11,067 bases of DNA, from IMG/VR virus record IMGVR_UViG_2690316002_000013, one strand, 5' to 3'. Under the pieces are notes generated by a model that did no database searches, was not told where the DNA came from, and saw nothing but the letters and a program-made list of their open reading frames with translations. Numbering within the stretch: position 1 is the first letter of the stretch; each line of letters starts with the position of its first letter. This stretch comes from a virus (taxonomy: Duplodnaviria; Heunggongvirae; Uroviricota; Caudoviricetes). Position numbers and translations under genes: made by a program. Shown piece after piece: positions 1 to 11,067 of the stretch.

Positions 1-1461
1 ATGAAAAAATTACTGCATCTTTTTTTCCCGCTCTCGCTGCGGGTACGTTTTCTGTTAGCAACGGCAGCAGTAGTATTGGTGCTTTCGCTTGCCTACGGAA
101 TGGTTGCGCTGATCGGTTATAGCGTCAGTTTCGATAAAACCACGTTTCGGCTGTTACGTGGCGAGAGCAATCTGTTCTATACCCTTGCGAAGTGGGAAAA
201 CAATAAGTTGCATGTCGAGTTACCCGAAAATATCGACAAGCAAAGCCCCACCATGACGCTAATTTATGATGAGAACGGGCAGCTTTTATGGGCGCAACGT
301 GACGTGCCCTGGCTGATGAAGATGATCCAGCCTGACTGGCTGAAATCGAATGGTTTTCATGAAATTGAAGCGGATGTTAACGATACCAGCCTCTTGCTGA
401 GTGGAGATCATTCTATACAGCAACAGTTGCAGGAAGTGCGGGAAGATGATGACGACGCGGAGATGACCCACTCGGTGGCGGTAAACGTCTACCCGGCAAC
501 ATCGCGGATGCCAAAGTTAACCATTGTGGTGGTGGATACCATTCCGGTGGAGCTAAAAAGTTCCTATATGGTCTGGAGCTGGTTTATCTATGTGCTCTCA
601 GCCAATCTGCTGTTAGTGATCCCGCTGCTGTGGGTCGCCGCCTGGTGGAGTTTACGCCCCATCGAAGCCCTGGCAAAAGAAGTCCGCGAACTGGAAGAAC
701 ATAACCGCGAATTGCTCAATCCAGCCACAACGCGAGAACTGACCAGTCTGGTACGAAACCTGAACCGACTGTTAAAAAGTGAACGCGAACGTTACGACAA
801 ATATCGTACGACGCTCACCGACCTGACCCATAGTCTGAAAACGCCACTGGCGGTGCTGCAAAGTACGCTGCGTTCTCTGCGTAGTGAGAAGATGAGCGTC
901 AGTGATGCTGAGCCGGTAATGCTGGAGCAAATCAGCCGCATTTCACAGCAAATTGGCTACTACCTGCATCGTGCCAGTATGCGCGGCGGGACATTGCTTA
1001 GCCGCGAGCTGCATCCGGTCGCCCCACTGCTGGACAATCTCACCTCGGCGCTGAACAAAGTGTATCAACGCAAAGGGGTCAATATCTCTCTCGATATTTC
1101 GCCAGAGATCAGCTTTGTCGGTGAGCAGAACGATTTTGTCGAGGTGATGGGCAACGTGCTGGATAATGCCTGTAAATATTGCCTCGAGTTTGTCGAAATA
1201 TCTGCAAGGCAAACAGACGAGCATCTCTATATTGTGGTCGAGGATGATGGCCCCGGTATTCCCTTAAGCAAGCGAGAGGTCATTTTCGACCGTGGTCAAC
1301 GGGTTGATACTTTACGCCCTGGGCAAGGTGTAGGGCTGGCGGTAGCCCGCGAAATCACCGAGCAGTATGAGGGTAAAATCGTCGCCGGAGAGAGCATGCT
1401 GGGCGGTGCGCGGATGGAGGTGATTTTTGGTCGCCAGCATTCTGCGCCGAAAGATGAATAA
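1..1461 (+). CDS. phoQ: Sensor histidine kinase PhoQ (PhoP/PhoQ two-component system), complete 486 aa
   Basis: Full-length ORF starting at window position 1. Translation shows N-terminal TM helix, periplasmic acidic patch ([11 protein letters not shown]), H-box ([12 protein letters not shown]) and HATPase motifs ([15 protein letters not shown]). Matches my recollection of E. coli PhoQ almost residue for residue. Confidence 0.97.
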
Positions 1462-1971
1462 ATATGTCCTTTTATCACCACAGCAAGGCAACCAATTGAT
1501 TTAATTAAACAACTCACACTGCAAAAAGTGCTAAAAACAGCAAATTGACTACACCATTAACTACACCGTTCGGTGCACTGTATGAAACAACGTTGAACAA
1601 ATAGACACAAGAAATATACAGGCGGGTAATCTTTCCAGGGGGAAGCGCACCAATTCATGAGGGGCGTTAATGTCGATATGGGGATCCCCATAACGGGGCT
1701 ACCAGATTTTTTTTCCGGTTAACTGTTAATCAGGCTGGTGGGCTTTACCTGTTCGGTAGGTGTTATGATTATCGTAATACCTTTCCCCCAATGGGGTAAA
1801 AGCTCCAACCGTAACGATGTTCGTTATGGTTGCCTTGATGGTCTGAGTGGTCATTTTGACCATTCAGCCAATGACCTTAATCAGAATTTTTCGCTAAAAA
1901 ATGACGTTGGCCACGTCATCCGGAAAGCACAAAATCACGTCGATTTTTAATGAACGGTTAAACCGTCTTTT

Positions 1972-2007
1972 TGTCACGGTGTGTCACTGGTTGTCACTCT
2001 CCGTCAC
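1972..2007. repeat. Four (T/C)GTCAC hexamers phased at exactly 10 bp (starts 1972, 1982, 1992, 2002)
   Basis: Read directly: ttGTCACggtgTGTCACtggtTGTCACtctccGTCACg. Helical-turn phasing is typical of arm-type recombinase/Xis sites or other cooperative DNA-binding arrays. Confidence 0.6.
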
Positions 2008-2096
2008 GATTGAGGTGGTGGACATTCTGCCCGACCGCGCATTTTTGCGCTATCGGGAATATCAAACAGTTACCGCGCCGACTTCCTCAAATTGAG

Positions 2097-2237
2097 GTTT
2101 CCGAAAATATCAGCGGGTTAGCGATTAAGCTGACGAGTAATTAAACTGCGAAAATTTCGTAGTTTGTGACTATCTGAAAGATAGTCGGTTGTTCCGGCCT
2201 CAGCCGTTGGCTGTTTCCGAAAATATCAGTAGGTTAG
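2097..2237. repeat. 26-bp direct repeat pair GTTTCCGAAAATATCAG-YR-GGTTAG (2097-2122 and 2212-2237, 24/26 identical) flanking the palindrome GACTATC-tgaaa-GATAGTC (2168-2186)
   Basis: Seen in sequence, in the non-coding stretch between phoQ and the first element gene. Confidence 0.6.
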
Positions 2238-2238
2238 G

Positions 2239-2262
2239 CCAAAGCTCAAAAATGAGCTTTGG
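2239..2262 (-). other. Perfect 10-bp inverted repeat CCAAAGCTCA-aaaa-TGAGCTTTGG, 16 bp 3' of the 93-aa gene; weak terminator or protein-binding palindrome
   Basis: Seen in sequence. No strong U-tract follows on either strand, so the terminator reading is tentative. Confidence 0.35.
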
Positions 2263-2277
2263 AACAATATCAACAAG

Positions 2278-2559
2278 TTACCGCCGTAACCGCTCCGGCT
2301 TCTTCCAGTGGTACGTAATTTTCTCCGTTTCCCGATACAGTGCCACGCGGCGATTGTAGGCCAGCATTTCAAGAACGCGGATCCGTATGTTGCGCATATC
2401 CACATCATTAAGCTGGATACCATCACGGCGCATCACCTCAGCAACAACACGCGCATAATTTTCGGCTGTCACGCTGTCCGGCTGCGTGGCCTGTTCGTCA
2501 GTCTGCTGGCTGATTCCACCAGCACGGCGGATTAATCCCAGTATTTCGGCTTCTGTCAT
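2278..2559 (-). CDS. Hypothetical small phage-type protein (93 aa), function unknown
   Basis: Intact ORF co-directional with the other element genes; its start lies about 34 bp from the cos-1 inverted-repeat arm. No family recognised by eye. Confidence 0.5.
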   Translation of the reverse strand: MTEAEILGLIRRAGGISQQTDEQATQPDSVTAENYARVVAEVMRRDGIQLNDVDMRNIRIRVLEMLAYNRRVALYRETEKITYHWKKPERLRR

Positions 2560-2592: not shown

Positions 2593-2795
2593 CGGGTCCT
2601 TCCTGGAATTATGGACCCGTTACGGGGCGGCGACCTCGCGGTTTTTATCTGTTTATGAAAATTTTCCGGCAAAAGTCAGATCCGTTCTTCTTCTCTGTAA
2701 CAGACTGTTTAACAATGAAAATATTAAAAAAAGAAAGGATCTGACACGAGGCATTTTAGCCAGAAAATGCCATTATCAGATCCTTTCTCATTTTT
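2593..2795 (+). other. Lambda-type cohesive-end site cos-1: cosQ-like arm, cosN (GGGCGGCGACCT, 2625-2636) and cosB with R3/R2/R1-like repeats (GATCCGTTCTTC 2679-2690; GAAAGGATCTGA 2733-2744; AGATCCTTTCTC 2778-2789)
   Basis: 2619-2700 closely follows the phage lambda left end as I recall it (GGGCGGCGACCTCGCGGGTTTTCGCTATTTATGAAAATTTTCCGG...CCGTTCTTCTTC). Orientation is cosN then cosB toward higher coordinates. Confidence 0.8.
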
Positions 2796-2815
2796 GTTCA
2801 ATAATTGCGCGTCTG

Positions 2816-3358
2816 TTACTCGCCTTTCTTCTGTAGCAACTTTTCCGGTACGTTTCCGGTTGTTTCTTTCAAGTAATCAGTCAGTATCTGTGGGAGGTTG
2901 TCGGCAACTCTGGCACTGGCATTACAGGCTTTAACCACTTCCCTTTTAAGCCTATCCAGCATGGCGGGGGTAATCTGTGGGAAGCTCCTTTGCATAGTAA
3001 GCGGGAGGCTGTCCATGATTGATGAAATCTGACTCGCCAGCTTTGAAAGCGCGTACAGGCAAAACTCAGTATCAATCACGTCACCGCGATCGCGCTCGTT
3101 TTTAAGTTCCTGCGCCTCCGCCTGTGCTGTCAGTAATCTGATCCTGACTCGTAAGAGTTCATCATCATCAATATCGCCTTTGTCGTTTGTAAGCTGGCTA
3201 ATTGCATTGTTAACCCTATTGTCTATCACGCTGGCAACATCATAAAACGCCTCACGGCCTTTACGTTCAACGGGAGTCACTCCCCACTTGTCGAACGCTG
3301 TCGCACTTACACGGCAGCTTTTCGCCATGTTTTTTTTGTTCATCAGGTGCGATTTCAT
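2816..3358 (-). CDS. Terminase small subunit, lambda Nu1 family (180 aa ORF; true start may be the internal Met at 3341-3343)
   Basis: Translation aligns by eye with lambda gpNu1: LLTAQAEAQELKNERD vs LTRAQADAQELKNARD, and TEFCLYALSKLASQISSIMDSLPLTMQRSFP vs TAFCTFVLSRIAGEIASILDGLPLSVQRRFP. Sits directly downstream of cos-2, the canonical cos-then-Nu1 arrangement. No strong Shine-Dalgarno at either candidate ATG. Confidence 0.9.
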   Translation of the reverse strand: MKSHLMNKKNMAKSCRVSATAFDKWGVTPVERKGREAFYDVASVIDNRVNNAISQLTNDKGDIDDDELLRVRIRLLTAQAEAQELKNERDRGDVIDTEFCLYALSKLASQISSIMDSLPLTMQRSFPQITPAMLDRLKREVVKACNASARVADNLPQILTDYLKETTGNVPEKLLQKKGE

Positions 3359-3534
3359 TAATACACCAACTTAATTACTGCTTCAGGTTGGTGTATTGTT
3401 TGCATCTTTCCCTTTTTATTCATAAAGATAGATCAAACAACGAAACCACCACCACCCCCCTGAAAAGGCTCATAAATAGCGAAAAACCGCTAGGTCGCCG
3501 CCCCGTAACGGGCCATAATTCCAGGAAGGACCCG
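3359..3534 (-). other. Second lambda-type cos (cos-2), inverted: cosN complement AGGTCGCCGCCC at 3492-3503, cosQ-like arm to 3534, degenerate cosB and a 9-bp-stem hairpin (3364-3397) just upstream of terS
   Basis: Reverse complement of 3485-3534 matches 2593-2641 with only two differences (one 1-bp indel, one mismatch). Similarity to cos-1 and to lambda fades inside cosB. Confidence 0.75.
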
Positions 3535-3535
3535 T

Positions 3536-3557
3536 AAAAAAGCCGGATTTCTCCGGC
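3536..3557 (-). terminator. Intrinsic terminator closing the head operon (minus strand: GCCGGA-gaaa-TCCGGC then TTTTTT)
   Basis: GC-rich 6-bp stem, 4-nt loop, U6 tract, 7 bp after the stop of the 137-aa gene. First of three near-identical copies. Confidence 0.6.
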
Positions 3558-3563
3558 CTTGTC

Positions 3564-3977
3564 TCAGATGGTTTTCAGTATGCGATCGATGTCGCCGTCA
3601 TCGCCCTGGTTTCTGCCATCGTATGCCATGCCAGCTGATACGGCTTGCGGGCTGTGCATGTCCATAAAGTTTTCAAAGGCTGCGGTAAGTTCCGGCGCAA
3701 CCTTCGGACGTTCCTGCTCTATGGTCATGCTAAGGATGCTTTTAGCCGTACCAACATCGATACAAGGCACGTTTGCCATTGCACGCAACAGCGGCTGATA
3801 GTCTTTATGCTCATGAAGCGCCATAATCGCATCAGCGCGCGGCTTGTCCTGCTCTTCCAGTTTGTTTAGTTGATATACGGCCTCATAGGTTGATAAACCT
3901 CTGTCAGCCATTGCCCGCGCTTCGACTTTAAATTTACTCGCCAGCGGTAGCGTCATGATGCTTTCATTCGTTGCCAT
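3564..3977 (-). CDS. Hypothetical protein (137 aa) between the decoration gene and cos; possible packaging or head-completion factor
   Basis: Intact ORF with strong SD (AGGGGGAA) 12 bp after the decoration gene stop. No similarity recognised to lambda FI, FII, W or Nu3 by eye. Confidence 0.65.
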   Translation of the reverse strand: MATNESIMTLPLASKFKVEARAMADRGLSTYEAVYQLNKLEEQDKPRADAIMALHEHKDYQPLLRAMANVPCIDVGTAKSILSMTIEQERPKVAPELTAAFENFMDMHSPQAVSAGMAYDGRNQGDDGDIDRILKTI

Positions 3978-3989
3978 CGTTCCCCCTGC

Positions 3990-4325
3990 TTATCGGGCCA
4001 GCGGCTGAACGGATACGCCGGAACCCGCAAAGGCGGCGCATTTTTTCGCATCGGTGTCGACGCTCTCAGGCCAGTTAACGGCGGCAATATTGAATATCCC
4101 CGTCTTGTAACACTGTGCTGATTTCTGCTTTGACGTGCCCACAGGGTACGAGGTCAGATAAACAGCCTTGCCAGATTCCTGACCATCCCACGGCTTAAAC
4201 TCGCCATTGTCTGCCAGCATCAGCGGGGTAAATTCCTGAATAACGCCAGCATCAGCGGCAAAATGTACCAACGTCGTGGATACCTGCTGACTGCCTGCAA
4301 ATAACTCAATGTATGGAGTGTCCAT
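3990..4325 (-). CDS. Head decoration protein, lambda gpD family (111 aa)
   Basis: Aligns with lambda gpD: TPLMLADNGEFKPWDG vs TPLMLDTSSRKLVAWDG, CYKTGIF vs FYKSGTF, KKCAAFAGSGVSV vs KKRTAFAGTAISIV. SD GGGGGGA upstream, 12 bp after the capsid gene stop. Confidence 0.9.
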   Translation of the reverse strand: MDTPYIELFAGSQQVSTTLVHFAADAGVIQEFTPLMLADNGEFKPWDGQESGKAVYLTSYPVGTSKQKSAQCYKTGIFNIAAVNWPESVDTDAKKCAAFAGSGVSVQPLAR

Positions 4326-4337
4326 AGAATCCCCCCG

Positions 4338-5393
4338 TTAACCAATTTTGACGGTAACAAATTTGCGAATATCTGCCGGTACCGGCTGCGGTGCACTGTG
4401 TGTCTGCACGTACTCAATCGCCGGATCGCCGTCCTCAATCCAGTTTTTCGGGTAAAACATGTTTTGTGTTGCGCCCGTTCTTACCGCTTCCTGATCCATT
4501 ATCGCACCATAGGCCACCAGCCCTTTATTGTTGGTGTTACCCAGGACCAGCAAATCAGGCTCAAGGAAATATTTTTCGGTACCATCGCTGTCAGTGTATT
4601 TGCCGGAATAGACGATAAGGGCCAGATCACCAAGATAGCCTTTAAAGCTCACCACTTCGCCCAGGTTTTTACAGGCCAGTTCGGCGGCGGATTCTGAACC
4701 ACGGGAAAGATCGTACAGCTCACGGAATTTTTTAAAGCTGCCTAATGTGCGCCATACCTCAGCGCCCATAATCATGACGTTTGCGGGGCAACCAGCCTGA
4801 TCAGCATAAAGCTCGATGTCATAGATTGGGTCGTGCATGTCTTTATCCTGCTCGGACCATTTTTTACCCTTGGCCTGCTCTATGATGCAGTTTTCCGGTA
4901 TTTTCCAGTCGATTTCATAGCGTTCTATGCCTTCGCCCTCAATGATGTTTTTTCCGGTCGTTACCGCATTCACCGCCAGCCATTCCACGCGTGCCTTAAT
5001 GGCGTTTATCTGGCGGCGCATGTTGCCAGTAATCAGGCGCATACGGCGATAGGTAGGGTCGTTAAGCTGTGCCGGATCTTCTCCAGCCATGCGCATGATG
5101 GTTTTCGTTGGATCGATTTCGTGCTTTGGCTTCATGTAGCCAGGTTTGATTGTGCTGGTTTCGTACCCTTTATCGCGCTGAACCTGGCTACCCACCATAG
5201 GCGAACAAAACGCCGACATGGTGACTTCTTCAATGTCCAGGGTATCCAGCATGATGTTTTGCGTGCTGAATGTCGCCACGTTCGGGAAAAACAGCGTGGT
5301 AAACAGAGGGCTGAATTTAAAATCCGCAATATCCCCGCGATTCAGGTACATGAAAAGCTGGTTAGTGTTAAGTGCCGTTGCTTTGCCTGCCAT
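4338..5393 (-). CDS. Major capsid protein, lambda gpE family (351 aa)
   Basis: Extensive by-eye alignment with lambda gpE (FKFSPLFTTLFF vs FKFDPLFLRLFF; PGYMKPKHE vs PGYVKPKHE; DPTYRRMRLI vs DPAYRRRRII; VSFKGYLGDLALIVYSGKY vs VSYKGMYGDVAIVVYSGQY; LVLGNTNNKGLVAYG vs MVLGNTQARGLRTYG; YPKNWIEDGDPA vs YPKNWVTTGDPA). Confidence 0.95.
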   Translation of the reverse strand: MAGKATALNTNQLFMYLNRGDIADFKFSPLFTTLFFPNVATFSTQNIMLDTLDIEEVTMSAFCSPMVGSQVQRDKGYETSTIKPGYMKPKHEIDPTKTIMRMAGEDPAQLNDPTYRRMRLITGNMRRQINAIKARVEWLAVNAVTTGKNIIEGEGIERYEIDWKIPENCIIEQAKGKKWSEQDKDMHDPIYDIELYADQAGCPANVMIMGAEVWRTLGSFKKFRELYDLSRGSESAAELACKNLGEVVSFKGYLGDLALIVYSGKYTDSDGTEKYFLEPDLLVLGNTNNKGLVAYGAIMDQEAVRTGATQNMFYPKNWIEDGDPAIEYVQTHSAPQPVPADIRKFVTVKIG

Positions 5394-5802: not shown

Positions 5803-5808
5803 GGGCGC

Positions 5809-5830
5809 AAAAAAGCCGGATTGCTCCGGC
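5809..5830 (-). terminator. Intrinsic terminator after the 74-aa gene (GCCGGA-gcaa-TCCGGC then T6 on minus strand)
   Basis: Second copy of the AAAAAAGCCGGATTKCTCCGGC module. Confidence 0.6.
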
Positions 5831-5850
5831 TATGTGTGCTGTGTGCTGGC

Positions 5851-6075: not shown

Positions 6076-6171
6076 TGTTTTTTTCCTCTGTTGTGTCTGT
6101 TTGTTTCAGATAGTAACTATGCCTGACCGTGACGAAAACCCGGTAATGCGCCATACCGTTTCAACTGGTGC

Positions 6172-6194
6172 AAAAAAAGCCGGATTTCTCCGGC
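6172..6194 (-). terminator. Intrinsic terminator after the PerC-like gene (third copy of the GCCGGA-tttc-TCCGGC module with A/T tract)
   Basis: Hairpin 6179-6194 preceded on the plus strand by A7 (U-tract on the minus strand), 8 bp after the stop. Confidence 0.6.
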
Positions 6195-6201
6195 TGTTTG
6201 A

Positions 6202-6895: not shown

Positions 6896-7143
6896 AATTC
6901 CACCTCTCCGGTTTTAACGTTGATGGTTGTTACCTGTTCCGCTTCGGCAATCTCCCGTTCTGTCAGCGTGGCAAAGTTTGCCGCCGCCGTGGTCATGAAT
7001 GCGCTTATCAGGTCGGGATGTTCCTTCGCGTATCCTTCCCGCGTGTGGCGGTCTATCGTTCTGATTGCCACCTTTAAGGTGTGCTCAGTCATGTCTAACG
7101 CTTTATATTTTGGCTCTGTTCTGTCTCTGCGTTTTTGGGTCAT
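6892..7143 (-). CDS. Hypothetical small protein (about 83 aa from ATG at 7141-7143), translationally coupled to ssb
   Basis: Its stop overlaps the ssb start (ATGA). The track's longer ORF begins at a GTG. No family recognised. Confidence 0.5.
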   Translation of the reverse strand: MTQKRRDRTEPKYKALDMTEHTLKVAIRTIDRHTREGYAKEHPDLISAFMTTAAANFATLTEREIAEAEQVTTINVKTGEVEL

Positions 7144-7149
7144 TTCTCG

Positions 7150-7345
7150 CAACCTCTCACTTTTTCGCCTCACTTTTTCAAGCGTCTCACTTCGTCGCAG
7201 TTGGGATTTTCGGTTTTTCTATGTGTGTGTTTCATAAGTATTTTTTTACCCCTCACTTTTGAGGATGTATACAGGTCGAAAAGTGAGGGAGAGCGGGCTA
7301 ATTTTGGCCCTCTTTCTATCCCCCTCGCTTTTGCTCCTCACTTTT
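7150..7345. repeat. Iteron array, candidate replication origin: about 7 copies of CTCAC(T)TTT (7156, 7169, 7186, 7252, inverted at 7279-7288, variant CTCGCTTTT at 7324, 7337) plus an AT-rich stretch (7214-7248)
   Basis: Counted directly in sequence. Includes a convergent pair CCTCACTTTT / AAAAGTGAGG around GTATAC. Lies immediately 3' of the RepA-like gene; the last iteron overlaps its stop codon. Confidence 0.6.
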
Positions 7346-8385
7346 ATAGCGGCGCTACATCATCCCCATCGATACGAATAACCCCATCTTTTTCCAGCTT
7401 GTACAGCCAGCGCCGGAAGTTTTTCATTTCATACCCCAGCTTTTTCATGTCATCACGTAACAGCGGGATCGTGCACTTGTCGCCGTTCTGTGTGCGTGAA
7501 CGGATGCACCCCCATAGCGCGGTATGGTTTTCCGTCTTGTTCCCTGCCTCCTCGATGCGCTCCAGTTCAACAGGAGGGCGCGGATCATCCACCACCACCA
7601 GCGACGTGATTAATTCACCGTCAGCGTCGGTAAAAAGCTCCACCACGCGTAAGTCATATGCGGCTTCTTTGAGTTCCTCCGCGTCCTTCATTTTGGTGCA
7701 TGAGATAACCAGCGCTTCGCTTCCTGCGTCCTCCCTGCGTATCCGGTATTCAGCATCCAGCGAAGCACGAAATGCACTGGAACCGCGCGCGCCTTTCGTC
7801 TCATCCTTGCCGGAATGGTGAACCACCAGCACCGTGGCCCCTGTGCGTCGTTTCAGTTCGTCACAACCACGGATAAACGCCCCATATCACGGGAATCATT
7901 TTCATCATTCCCACCAAAGCAACGCGCCAGCGTATCCAGAATAATCATGCGTACAGGTTTACCCGTTTCCCGCTCCACCTGACGGGCAGCGATAACCATT
8001 TCATCAACATCAAGCGGGGCAGCCGGAAAGATGGGGCGGTTTACCAGATACAGATTTTTCACCTGCTCATCGTGCACAACCTCCCAGGCTTTTACACGAC
8101 GCGGAACACCTATACCGCCTTCACCAACCACATAGAGAACCGCACCATGTGCAACCCTGCGGCCTCCCCACTGGCGACCAGTGGCAACATGGCACGCCCA
8201 CGATCCGGCAAGGAATGATTTATAGGACCCGCTAGCCCCGTATATGCTGCATAGCGATACCGCCGGAATAATCCCCTTAACCACGTAATCCAGTTGCGTG
8301 TCGTATCCGGTAGATCCAACGCTCATCGGTAGCGTGGTTTTTCGCTGGTGGTTTTTTTCTTCCGCCGGCTCTTTCCCGCGCACCC
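7344..8385 (-). pseudogene. RepA-like replicative ATPase (AAA_25/RecA-fold, DnaB-like helicase family) with C-terminal winged-helix-like domain; reading frame broken by a 1-nt frameshift near 7872-7877, 5' end running into the N gap
   Basis: Walker A GASGSYKS, Walker B-like MIILDTLA and the LVVHHSGKD motif lie in two different frames (tracks 7853..8623 and 7344..7832). One extra A in the run at 7875-7877 would give a continuous ...DMGRFIRGCDELKRRTGATVLVVHH... . A possible ATG start is at 8324-8326 but has no SD. Confidence 0.6.
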
Positions 8386-8616
8386 NNNNNNNNNNNNNNN
8401 NNNNNNNNNNNNNNNNNNNNNNNNNNNNNNNNNNNNNNNNNNNNNNNNNNNNNNNNNNNNNNNNNNNNNNNNNNNNNNNNNNNNNNNNNNNNNNNNNNNN
8501 NNNNNNNNNNNNNNNNNNNNNNNNNNNNNNNNNNNNNNNNNNNNNNNNNNNNNNNNNNNNNNNNNNNNNNNNNNNNNNNNNNNNNNNNNNNNNNNNNNNN
8601 NNNNNNNNNNNNNNNN
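8386..8616. other. Assembly gap (231 N)
   Basis: Run of n characters. Truncates the RepA-like gene on one side and the pin gene on the other. Confidence 0.99.
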
Positions 8617-9063
8617 GGTACAAAGTCCGAAAGGCCGGGACTGAAAAAACTGCTCAGGACATTATCGGCAGGTGACACGCTGGTGGTCTGGAAACTGGAC
8701 CGGCTGGGGCGCAGTATGCGGCATCTTGTCGTGCTGGTGGAGGAGTTGCGCGAACGAGGCATCAACTTTCGTAGTCTGACGGATTCAATTGATACCAGTA
8801 CCCCAATGGGGCGCTTTTTCTTTCATGTGATGGGTGCCCTGGCTGAAATGGAGCGTGAACTGATTGTTGAAAGAACAAAAGCTGGACTGGAAGCTGCTCG
8901 CGCACAGGGACGAATTGGTGGACGTCGTCCCAAACTTACACCAGAACAATGGGAACAGGCCGGACGATTAATTGCATCAGGAGTTCCTCGCCAGAAGGTG
9001 GCGATTATCTATGATGTTGGTGTGTCAACTTTGTATAAGAGGTTTCCTGCAGGGGATAAATAA
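8617..9063 (+). CDS. pin: Serine recombinase / DNA invertase of the Pin-Gin-Hin-Cin family, 3' part only (N-terminal ~35-40 codons lost in the gap)
   Basis: In-frame translation from 8617 reads GTKSERPGLKKLLRTLSAGDTLVVWKLDRLGRSMRHL...FFFHVMGALAEMERELIVERT...GRIGGRRPKLT..., closely matching e14 Pin as I recall it. Followed by mcrA as in e14. Confidence 0.9.
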   Translation, partial: GTKSERPGLKKLLRTLSAGDTLVVWKLDRLGRSMRHLVVLVEELRERGINFRSLTDSIDTSTPMGRFFFHVMGALAEMERELIVERTKAGLEAARAQGRIGGRRPKLTPEQWEQAGRLIASGVPRQKVAIIYDVGVSTLYKRFPAGDK

Positions 9064-9169
9064 AGTTAAAGACACTTTGTGTACAAAAGAAAGTAAAACA
9101 ACAGCAACTTGTTGCAATTTTATCAATAAAAGTAGTATTGTCGTGAAAAATTGATTAAAGATTAATATT

Positions 9170-10003
9170 ATGCATGTTTTTGATAATAATGGAATTGAAC
9201 TGAAAGCTGAGTGTTCGATAGGTGAAGAGGATGGTGTTTATGGTCTAATCCTTGAGTCGTGGGGGCCGGGTGACAGAAACAAAGATTACAATATCGCTCT
9301 TGATTATATCATTGAACGGTTGGTTGATTCTGGTGTATCCCAAGTCGTAGTATATCTGGCGTCATCATCAGTCAGAAAACATATGCATTCTTTGGATGAA
9401 AGAAAAATCCATCCTGGTGAATATTTTACTTTGATTGGTAATAGCCCCCGCGAGATACGCTTGAAGATGTGTGGTTATCAGGCTTATTTTAGTCGTACGG
9501 GGAGAAAGGAAATTCCTTCCGGCAATAGAACGAAACGAATATTGATAAATGTTCCAGGTATTTATAGTGACAGTTTTTGGGCGTCTATAATACGTGGAGA
9601 ACTATCAGAGCTTTCACAGCCTACAGATGATGAATCGCTTCTGAATATGAGGGTTAGTAAATTAATTAAGAAAACGTTGGGTCAACCCGAGGGCTCCAGG
9701 AAACCAGTTGAGGTAGAAAGACTACAAAAAGTTTATGTCCGAGACCCGATGGTAAAAGCTTGGATTTTACAGCAAAGTAAAGGTATATGTGAAAACTGTG
9801 GTAAAAATGCTCCGTTTTATTTAAATGATGGAAACCCATATTTGGAAGTGCATCATGTAATTCCCCTGTCTTCAGGTGGTGCTGATACAACAGATAACTG
9901 TGTTGCCCTTTGTCCGAATTGTCATAGAGAATTGCACTATAGTAAAAATGCAAAAGAACTAATCGAGATGCTTTACGTTAATATAAACCGATTACAGAAA
10001 TAA
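9170..10003 (+). CDS. mcrA: 5-methylcytosine-specific (type IV) restriction endonuclease McrA, HNH family, 277 aa
   Basis: Translation matches my recollection of E. coli K-12 McrA along its whole length; C-terminal HNH/zinc motif (CENCG...HHVIPLSSGG...CPNCH). AT-rich gene typical of horizontally acquired DNA. Confidence 0.95.
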   Translation: MHVFDNNGIELKAECSIGEEDGVYGLILESWGPGDRNKDYNIALDYIIERLVDSGVSQVVVYLASSSVRKHMHSLDERKIHPGEYFTLIGNSPREIRLKMCGYQAYFSRTGRKEIPSGNRTKRILINVPGIYSDSFWASIIRGELSELSQPTDDESLLNMRVSKLIKKTLGQPEGSRKPVEVERLQKVYVRDPMVKAWILQQSKGICENCGKNAPFYLNDGNPYLEVHHVIPLSSGGADTTDNCVALCPNCHRELHYSKNAKELIEMLYVNINRLQK

Positions 10004-10141
10004 AATTGTTTATTAAAGTCACATTTAAGACGTAATACCCTACAGGGTAAAAATTTTCTCTGATCTTAACTTCTGCAAATGTTAACTGCTATTTTTATGC
10101 TAAAAATGGTTATCAAAACTCAAAAACACATGTTTATAATC

Positions 10142-10178
10142 AATGAGTTATAGAAATGCTAAGGGCTAATGAGTTATA
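10142..10178. repeat. Direct repeat AATGAGTTATA x2 (10142-10152, 10168-10178) in the AT-rich arm upstream of the icdC core
   Basis: Seen in sequence. Its position 60-100 bp from the icd homology boundary would suit arm-type binding sites of an att site. Confidence 0.4.
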
Positions 10179-10236
10179 TGCAAATTAGTAAAATTATGTT
10201 GCTATCTCAAATAGTTACGATTTAGTCATCTAACTA

Positions 10237-10401
10237 ATGCTGCGCCATATGGGCTGGACTGAAGCCGCAGACCTGATTGTTAAAGGTATGGAAGGCGCAA
10301 TCAACGCCAAGACCGTAACCTATGACTTCGAACGTCTGATGGAAGGCGCTAAACTGCTGAAATGTTCAGAGTTTGGTGACGCGATCATCAAAAATATGTA
10401 A
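10237..10401 (+). pseudogene. icdC: Duplicated 3' end of isocitrate dehydrogenase gene (icdC-type fragment, 54 codons), marking an e14-type attachment site
   Basis: Translation [54 protein letters not shown] is the Icd C-terminus with two substitutions relative to the host sequence I recall (D to E, E to K). No upstream icd body is present. Confidence 0.85.
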
Positions 10402-10424
10402 TTACCACATGTGTTAAATATTAT

Positions 10425-10453
10425 AACGGGCGTATAACACGCCCGTTGTTTTT
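10425..10453 (+). terminator. Intrinsic terminator after the icd 3' fragment (AACGGGCGT-ataac-ACGCCCGTT then T5)
   Basis: 9-bp GC-rich stem and U-tract 24 bp after the stop codon. Confidence 0.65.
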
Positions 10454-10662
10454 ATAAATATGTTAACCGTTATAAAATAACGTATCAAAAGTCAAGTGAA
10501 CACATTTCAAATATCAATTTGATCGTATTGGTCTGGTGATTATTTATGGGGAGCAATAAAAAGACAGTATTAATCATCCATAGGGATAGTCTCTGCACTT
10601 TTATTTCCATTATGCTAATGCCTTACTGAATTATGAAGCATTTTTTAAGCTCCCAACTTTAG

Positions 10663-11067
10663 CTAGATTAATGGTTTATTATTTTCTACATCTTCAATAT
10701 ATAAAAGCGTATTATCAATGGCGTAGTAACTGCGTTTGTTATGATTAACATCAGTAACCCACCGGAAAACGCCAGCGCCTGCCAGTGTTGAACAGTATTC
10801 CCGAAATGTAGATTTTCCGCGAATATGAAGCAATGCGGCCTCTTTTATTTTAGCTGGGTTCTTGGTCGTACTAACTTTTAACAGGTTCCTGGTTCCTCTT
10901 AATAACAAAACCGTGTCATCGTGAGTAATAATTCTGATGTTATCCGTAGCCAGATAATAAATGTAATGTGCAATACGGTGATGTTTTAATTCTGAATAAA
11001 ACCAGGAGAAGTTTTGCTCTTTTCTCACTTGCTCAAACATCTTTTGAAAAACAACGACCTGATCCAT
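10663..11067 (-). CDS. ycgX: 134-aa hypothetical protein, probably the DUF1398-family protein YcgX by position and length
   Basis: Complete ORF whose start codon is the last three bases of the window. Assignment rests on remembered K-12 synteny (mcrA-icdC-[iraM]-ycgX) and the matching 134-aa length, not on recognising the sequence. Confidence 0.55.
   Translation of the reverse strand: MDQVVVFQKMFEQVRKEQNFSWFYSELKHHRIAHYIYYLATDNIRIITHDDTVLLLRGTRNLLKVSTTKNPAKIKEAALLHIRGKSTFREYCSTLAGAGVFRWVTDVNHNKRSYYAIDNTLLYIEDVENNKPLI

What the first reader, a model, noticed from the sequence alone, without database searches (positions are those of the whole stretch)
2637..3491. The two cos sites share cosQ/cosN but differ in cosB: possible dual terminase specificity
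cos-1 cosB keeps lambda-like R-site repeats (GATCCGTTCTTC, GAAAGGATCTGA, AGATCCTTTCTC) at lambda-like spacing. cos-2 diverges from lambda and from cos-1 soon after the conserved TTTATGA and instead carries GGGGGG, GGTGGTGGTGG and a 9-bp-stem hairpin before terS. Since cosB determines small-terminase recognition in lambda versus 21, one site could serve a helper-type TerS and the other the element's own Nu1-like TerS.
Basis: partly seen in the sequence, partly recalled or inferred. Interest (0 to 1): 0.55.

Follow-up and report, generated by a model that had tools for sequence, protein, structure and literature searches.

The report
Two inverted cos sites in PICI
A small phage-parasitic island next to phoQ in E. 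coli carries two oppositely oriented DNA-packaging start sites: one appears matched to the island's own small terminase and the other copies the site of a different phage group, which probably widens the range of phages that can spread the island.

Summary
Two complete cos sites in inverted orientation flank a 180-aa Nu1-family terS gene (2816-3358, minus strand). Both share cosQ, a lambda-identical cosN and about 45 bp of spacer, then diverge completely.

The element is a phage-inducible chromosomal island allelic to EcCICFT073, at the same phoQ-roxA site. EcCICFT073's two cos sites are published: cos1 is read by RppA-TerS, and cos2 has no explained role.

In this island a full-length N15-type TerS replaces Rpp.
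- **cos-2 (terS-proximal)** has an N15-like "simple" cosB. Its single (TGG)3TTTCGTTGTT element is conserved in 78 of 79 related loci.
- **cos-1 (distal)** has a "complex" phage-type cosB, R3-I1-R2-R1, at lambda's positions. Its repeats are CAGATCC(G/T)TTCT. That is not lambda's sequence but that of a lambdoid prophage group found in 210 of 5426 complete E. coli genomes.

Across relatives, the proximal cosB tracks the island's TerS or Rpp type. The distal cosB is swapped independently (AGATCC type, 21-like, a third type, or absent).

The dual-specificity reading is therefore supported by comparison and by precedent, but no binding or packaging was tested. I class it as a new variant of a known kind, of moderate interest.

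The parts
2594..2600 (+). cos-1 cosQ heptamer GGGTCCT. It lies 31 nt upstream of cosN bp 1, against 30 nt in all other lambda-cosN sites compared.
2625..2636 (+). cos-1 cosN, GGGCGGCGACCT, identical to lambda's 12-nt cohesive end.
2637..2676 (+). cos-1 conserved cosN-R3 spacer, including TGTTTATGA. Similarity to cos-2 ends near 2669, and so does homology with EcCICFT073 cos2.
2677..2688 (+). cos-1 R3, CAGATCCGTTCT, at bp 53-64 from cosN (the same position as lambda R3).
2698..2710 (+). cos-1 I1-like IHF element, TAACAGACTGTTT, at bp 74-86. It has 2 mismatches to YAAN4TTGATW, the same quality and position as lambda's.
2732..2743 (-). cos-1 R2, inverted, CAGATCCTTTCT, at bp 108-119.
2777..2788 (+). 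cos-1 R1, CAGATCCTTTCT, at bp 153-164.
2816..3358 (-). Island terS, 180 aa. [quoted passage not shown]
3360..3397 (-). Hairpin with an 11-bp stem (AATACACCAAC / GTTGGTGTATT) and a 16-nt loop, ending 2 nt before the terS ATG. A strong hairpin is present in only 23 of 79 related loci.
3434..3460 (-). cos-2 cosB core: G-run, then (TGG)3, then TTTCGTTGTT, at bp 44-70 from cosN. This is the candidate single R3 for the island TerS.
3461..3491 (-). cos-2 conserved cosN-cosB spacer, including CTATTTATGA.
3492..3503 (-). cos-2 cosN, GGGCGGCGACCT on the minus strand.
3527..3533 (-). cos-2 cosQ heptamer GGGTCCT, 30 nt upstream of cosN as in lambda.
2670..3461 (.). Variable specificity cassette: distal cosB, terS, proximal cosB. 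It has no similarity to the corresponding EcCICFT073 cassette, while both flanks are 93-96% identical.
2278..2559 (-). Conserved 93-aa ORF flanking cos-1. It is present in EcCICFT073 and other relatives; function unknown.
3564..3977 (-). Conserved 137-aa ORF upstream of cos-2, followed by a terminator-like hairpin at 3533-3562.

Best explanation
The window holds the packaging end of an ~11-kb phage-inducible chromosomal island (PICI) of the EcCICFT073 family, inserted beside phoQ. Two complete cos sites lie in inverted orientation around the island's own small-terminase gene.

**cos-2 (terS-proximal)** has a simple, N15-type cosB: one R3-like element, (TGG)3TTTCGTTGTT at bp 50-68, with no IHF site and no R2 or R1. 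I infer that it is the cognate site of the island's N15-type TerS. That TerS keeps a lambda/N15-class C-terminal tail, so it could bring a helper phage's TerL to the island's cosN.

**cos-1 (distal, convergent)** is a complete phage-type site: cosQ-cosN-R3-I1-R2-R1. Its R sites, CAGATCC(G/T)TTCT, are those of a natural lambdoid prophage group distinct from lambda and 21. I infer that a helper of that group can package the island with its own TerS-TerL holoenzyme.

On excised, concatemeric island DNA, packaging from the two sites would run in opposite directions. Each run would end at the next copy of the same site, so either site alone transfers the whole island.

**Shown here:** the anatomy, the family assignments, the covariation and the modular exchange.
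**Inferred:** who binds what, and that both sites are used.
For: **Identity of the element**
- Same insertion site and gene order as EcCICFT073: capsid E, decoration D, 137-aa ORF, cos, specificity gene, inverted cos, 93-aa ORF, phoQ.
- Flanks are 93-96% identical to EcCICFT073, with homology ending at about bp 42-45 of each cos.

**cos-1**
- Three R sites against 0.06 expected by chance, at lambda's positions and orientations, with an I1-like element at bp 74-86.
- The same R type at the same positions occurs in the E. coli O43 RM10042 prophage, which reads lysis-cos-terS-terL-W-portal, and in phage SerU-LTIIb.
- That prophage module is in 210 of 5426 complete E. coli genomes.
- Its TerS recognition helix differs from those of lambda, 21 and the island.

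**cos-2 and TerS**
- TerS is 46% identical to N15 gp1, including the DNA-binding domain, and aligns with Nu1 over its full length.
- The motif (TGG)2-4 plus T-run plus GTTGTT is present in 78 of 79 loci and starts at bp 59 in 76 of them. This holds across several different cosN sequences.
- N15 R3 is GAGGTTGTTGTT at bp 48-59 (PMC4669245).
- cos-2 and N15 both lack IHF-like sites.

**Covariation**
- The STEC306 island TerS has a 21-type DNA-binding domain, and its proximal cos has CATGTCGG R sites.
- L018 has a 99% identical TerS but a 21-like distal cosB. Other loci have a third distal type or none.

**Precedent**
- EcCICFT073 cos1 and cos2 are both functional, and only the cos1 cosB responds to RppA (PMC6092414, PMC6739421).
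Against: - No binding, cleavage or transfer data exist for this island.
- The GTTGTT element lies 9 bp further from cosN than N15 R3. In lambda the cosN-R3 distance tolerates only 1-2 bp of change (PMC4669245).
- No rR2-like copy was found inside terS.
- The window's own motif reads TTTCG, where the great majority of the 79 loci read TTTTG.
- The window's cos-1 has a 1-nt insertion between cosQ and cosN. The DEC5A copy has a substitution in R3.
- In EcCICFT073, deleting the distal cos2 increased transfer by lambda and phi80 (PMC6092414), so a distal site can be costly.
- About 32 of 71 informative related loci have no distal cos, so it is dispensable.
- N15-specific terminase packages lambda DNA (PMC4669245), so cross-recognition by the island TerS cannot be excluded.
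- The structure model of TerS was low-confidence (pLDDT 57).
Confidence: 0.6

Rival explanations
1. cos-1 is a by-product of recombination between the island and lambdoid phages at the conserved cos core. It is carried along without a role in island transfer, and may even be costly.
For: - Distal cos is absent in about 32 of 71 informative relatives and in the Enterobacter relatives.
- Deleting EcCICFT073 cos2 raised transfer by lambda and phi80 (PMC6092414).
- The window copy has a 31-nt cosQ-cosN spacer, and DEC5A has an R3 substitution.
Against: - All three R sites and the I1-like element are intact and in register.
- At least three internally consistent R-site types occur at this position in different islands. 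That is unexpected for decaying DNA.
- The EcCICFT073 double cos deletion abolished the residual transfer left after deleting cos1, so cos2 is functional (PMC6092414).
Confidence: 0.15
2. The island TerS works like Rpp. It acts only as a hetero-oligomer with the helper's TerS, redirecting it to cos-2 and away from the phage cos, and does not recruit TerL by itself.
For: - It occupies exactly the rpp slot.
- Its central coiled-coil region is very similar to that of phage TerS proteins (RLTxAQAxAQELKN), so mixed oligomers are plausible.
- EcCICFT073 needs helper TerS (PMC6092414).
Against: - It shows no sequence or profile similarity to RppA.
- Unlike Rpp, it keeps the whole C-terminal region that aligns with the TerL-binding tail of Nu1 and N15 gp1.
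Confidence: 0.1
3. cos-1 is mainly an interference device. On replicating island DNA, a multicopy helper-type cosB would titrate the helper's TerS or terminase, or provoke unproductive cutting, and so lower phage yield.
For: - It is a complete helper-type cosB with no cognate terS behind it.
- PICIs of this family are known to interfere with helper packaging (PMC6739421).
Against: - A complete cosQ-cosN-cosB site bound by terminase would also start island packaging, so a decoy role cannot be separated from use.
- There is no evidence of interference from EcCICFT073 cos2. Interference there maps to rppA (PMC6739421).
Confidence: 0.08
4. Both cos sites are served by the island's own TerS, and the second site simply increases initiation frequency.
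For: N15-type terminase is promiscuous: it packages lambda DNA, whose R3 differs from N15's (PMC4669245).
Against: - The distal cosB varies among at least three R types, or is absent, next to near-identical TerS genes.
- The proximal motif is almost invariant.
- The AGATCC R sites have their own cognate TerS type in prophages.
Confidence: 0.07

Closest known systems
EcCICFT073 (E. coli cos PICI) with cos1, cos2 and RppA (Fillol-Salom 2018, PMC6092414; 2019, PMC6739421)
   Same: - Same phoQ-roxA insertion site and the same gene order.
- Flanks are 93-96% identical.
- Two inverted cos sites bracket the packaging-specificity gene.
- The proximal cosB is specific to the island's own protein, and the distal site carries R-type repeats.
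   Different: - Rpp (144 aa, no TerL-binding tail, needs helper TerS) is replaced by an unrelated full-length Nu1-family TerS.
- The proximal cosB has (TGG)3TTTYGTTGTT instead of CACCACCACCA.
- The distal R sites are CAGATCC rather than CATGTCCGG.
- The published papers state that no phage cosB could be identified in the island.
Phage N15 cos and gp1 (simple cosB; Feiss et al. 2015, PMC4669245)
   Same: - TerS is 46% identical, including the recognition helix (xxAFDKWG).
- cosB has a single GTTGTT-containing element and no IHF site, R2 or R1.
   Different: - The GTTGTT element starts at bp 59, not bp 51, and is preceded by (TGG)n.
- There is no rR2 inside terS.
- cosN is lambda's, not N15's.
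- The TerS has a 14-aa C-terminal extension.
Complex cosB of lambda, 21 and phi80 (R3-I1-R2-R1)
   Same: cos-1 has identical architecture and spacing, and the same cosQ, cosN and spacer.
   Different: - The R-site sequence differs at bp 54-56, positions known to set the lambda versus 21 specificity (PMC4669245, PMC9026076).
- The cognate TerS is of the RM10042-prophage type.
- In the island, the site is followed by the 3' end of a convergent, non-cognate terS.
SaPI-encoded TerS (pac SaPIs), and cos SaPIs or P4 that carry the helper's cos
   Same: It works alike: a satellite either encodes its own TerS to redirect helper TerL, or copies the helper's packaging site. This island appears to do both. 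SaPIbov4 is also reported to have two putative cos sites (PMC6092414).
   Different: - SaPI TerS uses headful (pac) packaging in Gram-positive hosts.
- There is no sequence relationship.
- Nothing was tested here beyond what those papers state.

Membership tests
Lambda-like complex cos site (cos-1) | cosQ heptamer about 30 nt upstream of a 12-nt cosN related to lambda's | tested here: met
   GGGTCCT at 2594-2600; cosN at 2625-2636 is identical to lambda's. The spacer is 31 nt rather than 30.
Lambda-like complex cos site (cos-1) | Three related R sequences: R3 at about bp 50-65, R2 inverted, R1 direct | tested here: met
   bp 53-64 (+), 108-119 (-), 153-164 (+), against lambda's 53-64, 109-120, 155-166. 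Three matches against 0.06 expected by chance.
Lambda-like complex cos site (cos-1) | IHF site I1 between R3 and R2 | tested here: met
   TAACAGACTGTTT at bp 74-86, with the same position and the same 2 mismatches to the consensus as lambda's element. IHF binding itself was not tested.
Lambda-like complex cos site (cos-1) | Bound by a cognate TerS and nicked by TerL | not testable with these tools
   Needs gel shift, footprinting or cos-cleavage assays.
N15-type simple cosB (cos-2) | A single R3-like element near bp 48-59, with no I1, R2 or R1 | tested here: inconclusive
   A single (TGG)3TTTCGTTGTT lies at bp 50-68, and there is no IHF-like site. However, its GTTGTT core is about 9 bp further from cosN than in N15.
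N15-type simple cosB (cos-2) | Remote inverted rR2 copy about 200 bp away, inside terS | tested here: not met
   The best inverted match is 10/12 at bp 635-646, and nothing lies near bp 250. rR2 is non-essential in N15 (PMC4669245).
N15-type simple cosB (cos-2) | Adjacent cognate TerS with an N15-type recognition helix | tested here: met
   ATAFDKWG against N15's VQAFDKWG; 46% identity overall.
Nu1-family small terminase (TerS) | Pfam Phage_Nu1 match and full-length homology to lambda Nu1, including the C-terminal TerL-binding region | tested here: met
   PF07471, E = 2.4e-23. hhalign probability 99.9%, residues 6-166 against Nu1 3-180.
Nu1-family small terminase (TerS) | [quoted passage not shown] | tested here: inconclusive
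   The AlphaFold model has pLDDT 57. The order of elements (helix, helix, beta-hairpin, helix) is compatible, but confidence is too low for a fold search. No PDB sequence hit was found.
Rpp (redirecting phage packaging) proteins | Homology to RppA/B/C; about 140-155 aa; lacks the TerL-binding tail | tested here: not met
   BLASTP E = 1.4 and hhalign probability 0.1% against RppA. The protein is 180 aa with a Nu1-like tail.
Gram-negative cos PICI (EcCICFT073 family) | int-alpA-replication module, capsid E/D homologues and a cos-bearing 3' end at a specific att site | tested here: met
   The complete copy in O55:H7 DEC5A runs int, HTH regulator, Icd-like, RepA helicase, SSB, PerC, capsid, decoration, terS, between roxA and phoQ. 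It is allelic to EcCICFT073. The int end is missing from the window itself, beyond the N-run.
Gram-negative cos PICI (EcCICFT073 family) | Helper-phage-dependent induction, packaging and transfer | not testable with these tools
   Needs induction and transduction experiments.

The most novel reading that the evidence does not exclude
The two inverted cos cores (cosQ-cosN-spacer, about 80 bp each) may act as portable recombination arms around a swappable specificity cassette. The cassette holds the proximal cosB, a TerS or Rpp gene, and the distal phage-type cosB.

Exchange with other islands and with phages would re-tune which helpers can package the island. In this variant the island would use two routes at once:
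- its own N15-type TerS recruiting lambda/N15-class TerL to cos-2;
- a copied cosB (cos-1) for phages whose TerS-TerL pair belongs to the other class (phi4/RM10042 type), which the island TerS tail may not reach.

This would also explain the so far unexplained cos2 of EcCICFT073.
Probability: 0.4. Interest if true: 0.6.

Novelty: new variant of a known kind. Interest (0 to 1): 0.45.

Why it matters
Islands of this family carry PerC/RgdR-type regulators of type III secretion in EHEC and EPEC lineages, so which phages can move them matters for the spread of virulence traits.

The comparison offers a testable explanation for the second cos site of the model island EcCICFT073: it may be a copied helper-type cosB. 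The published papers report that no phage cosB could be found in that island.

It also shows that the Rpp strategy has a sibling in which the island encodes a complete cos-type TerS. That would be a Gram-negative, cos-packaging counterpart of the SaPI TerS.

The natural set of matched pairs is ready material for the long-standing question of how TerS reads cosB, and could help in designing cos-based DNA delivery vehicles:

| TerS DNA-binding type | Matched cosB element |
|---|---|
| lambda | CGTTTCC |
| 21 | CATGTCGG |
| RM10042 prophage | CAGATCC |
| N15 / PICI | GTTGTT |

Tried and rejected
- **Species-representative genomes.** A scan for TerS relatives found nothing. The family is largely confined to E. 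coli/Shigella, with relatives at about 58% identity in Enterobacter and Citrobacter.
- **Solved structures.** A PDB sequence search with TerS gave only chance hits.
- **Structure prediction.** The AlphaFold model was too poor (pLDDT 57) to justify a fold search.
- **N15-style rR2 inside terS.** None found near bp 250.
- **Hairpin before terS.** I considered it a possible conserved regulatory or binding element. It is real in this lineage but strong in only 23 of 79 relatives, and absent in L007 and the Enterobacter loci, so it is not a family feature.
- **Resident O157 Stx1 phages as owners of the cos-1 R type.** They do not carry it. Their cos and Nu1 are lambda-type.
- **cos-1 as a lambda cosB.** Rejected, because the repeats differ from lambda R3 at bp 54-56.
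- **Island protein as an Rpp homologue.** Rejected.
- **Co-occurrence.** I could not test whether AGATCC-type prophages and islands carrying an AGATCC distal cos occur in the same genomes, because hit lists are capped.
Full report
**1. What is in the window**

Bases 1-1461 are phoQ. From about 1462 to the N-run at 8386-8626 lies the 3' part of a small island, read on the minus strand:
- a RepA-type helicase, an SSB and a PerC-family regulator;
- a lambda gpE-type capsid protein and a gpD-type decoration protein;
- a 137-aa ORF, a 180-aa Nu1-family small terminase (2816-3358) and a 93-aa ORF.

A 98.9% identical complete copy in E. coli O55:H7 DEC5A is about 11 kb. It sits between phoQ and roxA and begins with an integrase and a small HTH regulator.

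EcCICFT073, the model Gram-negative PICI, occupies the same site in strain CFT073 with the same gene order. The one difference is that the terS slot holds rppA (c1503, 144 aa) (PMC6092414; PMC6739421).

**2.

The two arms of an inverted repeat, 2593-2669 and 3459-3534, are two cos sites.
- cos-1 is on the + strand: cosQ at 2594-2600, cosN at 2625-2636.
- cos-2 is on the - strand: cosN at 3492-3503, cosQ at 3527-3533.
- Both cosN sequences equal lambda's cohesive end.
- Identity between the two sites is 37/45 over bp 1-45 to the right of cosN. It falls to 2/15 in bp 46-60.

*cos-1.* It has CAGATCC(G/T)TTCT three times, against 0.06 expected by chance, and nowhere else in the window.

| Element | cos-1 (bp from cosN) | lambda (bp from cosN) |
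|---|---|---|
| R3 (+) | 53-64 | 53-64 |
| R2 (-) | 108-119 | 109-120 |
| R1 (+) | 153-164 | 155-166 |

An IHF-like element sits at bp 74-86, the same place as in lambda, 21-type phages and the other complex cos sites compared.

*cos-2.* It has a G-run, then (TGG)3, then TTTCGTTGTT at bp 44-70. It has no IHF-like site and no repeats. An 11-bp-stem hairpin lies just before the terS start codon.

**3. What cos-1 is**

Its repeats are not lambda's CGTTTCC(G/T)TTCT. They differ at bp 54-56, positions that help discriminate lambda from 21 (PMC4669245, PMC9026076).

The same CAGATCC repeats, at the same positions, form the cosB of a bona fide lambdoid prophage in E. coli O43 RM10042. That prophage reads lysis genes, cos, terS, terL, W, portal. 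The repeats also occur in phage SerU-LTIIb.

That prophage's cos-terS-terL segment is present at 95-100% identity in 210 of 5426 complete E. coli genomes. Its TerS has recognition helix RTIT(A/G)WQS, against RTIQNWQE in lambda and RTI(E/D)RWQ(S/T) in 21-type phages.

So cos-1 is a full copy of the packaging site of a third lambdoid specificity group. In the island it is not followed by a cognate terS. Instead it runs into the 3' end of the convergent island terS.

**4. What cos-2 and the island TerS are**

The island protein is a complete Nu1-family TerS:
- Pfam PF07471;
- 46% identity to N15 gp1 over residues 5-166;
- a profile match to lambda Nu1 residues 3-180, probability 99.9%.

It shows no similarity to RppA. 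Its DNA-binding domain is the short N15 type, with recognition helix ATAFDKWG against N15's VQAFDKWG. Its C-terminus keeps the lambda/N15-type tail motif.

N15 has a "simple" cosB with a single critical R3, GAGGTTGTTGTT, at bp 48-59 and no IHF site (PMC4669245). cos-2 has the same simple layout and a GTTGTT core.

In 79 IMG/VR loci encoding this TerS at 80-99% identity (38 distinct upstream sequences):
- 78 carry (TGG)2-4 followed by a T-run and GTTGTT;
- in 76 the T-run begins at bp 59;
- this holds even where cosN itself differs.

The motif also occurs in Enterobacter relatives whose TerS is only 58% identical.

Points that do not fit N15:
- the core lies about 9 bp further from cosN;
- no rR2 copy was found in terS;
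- the hairpin is not conserved.

**5. Covariation and modularity**

Homology between this island and EcCICFT073 stops at about bp 42-45 of each cos site. It leaves a 792-bp cassette (2670-3461) with no similarity.

Within the TerS-type islands:
- The STEC306 variant has a chimeric TerS, with a 21-type DNA-binding domain (DPRTIERWQ) joined to the island-type C-terminal half. Its proximal cos then has 21-type R sites, CATGTCGG.
- The distal site varies independently. Among the 80 loci it is AGATCC type, 21-like, a third type with a different cosN, or absent.
- Locus L018 has a TerS 99% identical to the window's but a 21-like distal cosB.

In EcCICFT073 the distal cos2 likewise has R-type repeats, CATGTCCGG, at bp 50-61 and 107-118. 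They resemble those of its natural helper, phage 4.

So the proximal cosB follows the island's own specificity protein, and the distal cosB is an exchangeable phage-type module.

**6. How it most likely works (inference)**

- **Route 1.** The island TerS binds the single element of cos-2 and, through its lambda/N15-class tail, brings a helper's TerL to cosN.
- **Route 2.** A helper whose own TerS reads CAGATCC repeats initiates at cos-1.

Because the sites are inverted, the two routes would package the concatemer in opposite directions. Each would terminate at the next copy of the same site, so either route moves the whole island.

A further inference concerns TerS-TerL pairing. TerS tails and TerL N-termini fall into two classes: lambda/N15, and phi4/RM10042. 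The island TerS tail is of the first class, while the phage group that owns the cos-1 cosB is of the second. The copied site may therefore reach helpers that the island TerS cannot.

Simultaneous use should be costly, because a cut at the nearby inverted site would abort a packaging run. This fits the rise in EcCICFT073 transfer after cos2 deletion (PMC6092414).

**7. Comparison with what is known, and novelty**

Already published for EcCICFT073: two cos sites, both functional, with only the proximal cosB read by the island's protein (PMC6092414, PMC6739421). Murialdo and Feiss (PMC9026076) analysed only the proximal type.

I did not find the following in the searchable literature:
- an account of the TerS-type variant with an N15-like cosB;
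- recognition that the distal sites are complete phage-type cosBs of several specificity groups;
- the cassette boundaries.

Those papers state that no phage cosB could be identified in the island. I therefore rate this a new variant of a known kind, of moderate interest.

**8. Limits**

- Nothing here shows binding, cleavage or transfer.
- The structure model was poor.
- Co-occurrence of islands and matching prophages could not be tabulated.
- The window copy may be damaged. It has a 1-nt insertion in the cos-1 cosQ-cosN spacer and a 1-nt deletion in the helicase gene. Its integrase end is missing beyond an N-run.

Noticed in passing
window 8386-8626 and 8627-11067: A 241-nt N-run joins the island's helicase gene directly to e14-type genes (pin invertase, mcrA, icdC) and ycgX. 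The integrase/alpA half of the island is therefore absent from the window. The junction looks like an assembly gap or masked stretch, not a real neighbourhood.
   Followed up: partly
window ~7876-7884 (helicase gene, ORFs 7344-7832 and 7853-8623): The window has a run of four C where O55:H7 DEC5A has five. This splits the RepA-type helicase gene into two ORFs. It is either a real inactivating frameshift or a homopolymer read error.
   Followed up: partly
window 2594-2625: cos-1 has 31 nt between the start of cosQ and cosN, because of an extra A near 2614. Every other lambda-cosN site compared has 30 nt, including cos-2 and the DEC5A copy of cos-1. It might weaken cosQ-dependent termination at cos-1.
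   Followed up: partly
window 3533-3562, 5806-5835, 6170-6199: Three copies of a terminator-like hairpin, AAAAAAGCCGGAT(T/G)(T/C)CTCCGGC, which reads GCCGGAGAAATCCGGCTTTTTT on the minus, coding strand. They separate gene blocks of the island, and one sits immediately upstream of the cos-2 cosQ.
   Followed up: no
window 7134-7345: Iteron-like repeats, TTTTnCnCCTCACTTTT, occur three times, spaced 83-85 bp apart, just downstream of the helicase gene. This is where PICI replication origins are reported to lie (PMC6092414).
   Followed up: no
L013 (E. coli STEC306) 3657-4259 and 4260-4480: A chimeric island TerS joins a 21-type DNA-binding domain to the island-type C-terminal half. It is paired with 21-type R sites in its proximal cos, and with an AGATCC-type distal cos that has a different cosN.
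   Followed up: partly
L010-L012 (Enterobacter metagenome and run assemblies): Relatives with a TerS 58% identical to the window's sit inside a lambdoid prophage capsid gene E. These match the described "helper-embedded satellites" (bioRxiv 10.1101/2022.07.18.500453). They keep the proximal (TGG)3GTTGTTGTT element but have no distal cos.
   Followed up: partly
L006 7553-7660 compared with window 3434-3460: The EcCICFT073 cos1 (Rpp-type) has CACCACCACCA at bp 54-64. The TerS-type cos-2 has the complementary repeat TGGTGGTGG at bp 50-58. The same trinucleotide repeat therefore occurs in opposite orientation at the R3 position of two unrelated specificity proteins. This is unexplained.
   Followed up: no
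window 2851-2870 (inside the terS 3' end): On the + strand, CGTTTCCGGTTGTTTCTTTC resembles a lambda-type R sequence (CGTTTCCGTTCTT). It lies about 230 bp to the right of the cos-1 cosN. It is probably chance within coding sequence.
   Followed up: no
window 1868-2265: The stretch between phoQ and the 93-aa ORF differs from DEC5A. It contains a 25-nt direct repeat, GTTTCCGAAAATATCAG..., at 2097 and 2213, 116 bp apart. This may be an att-proximal duplication.
   Followed up: no
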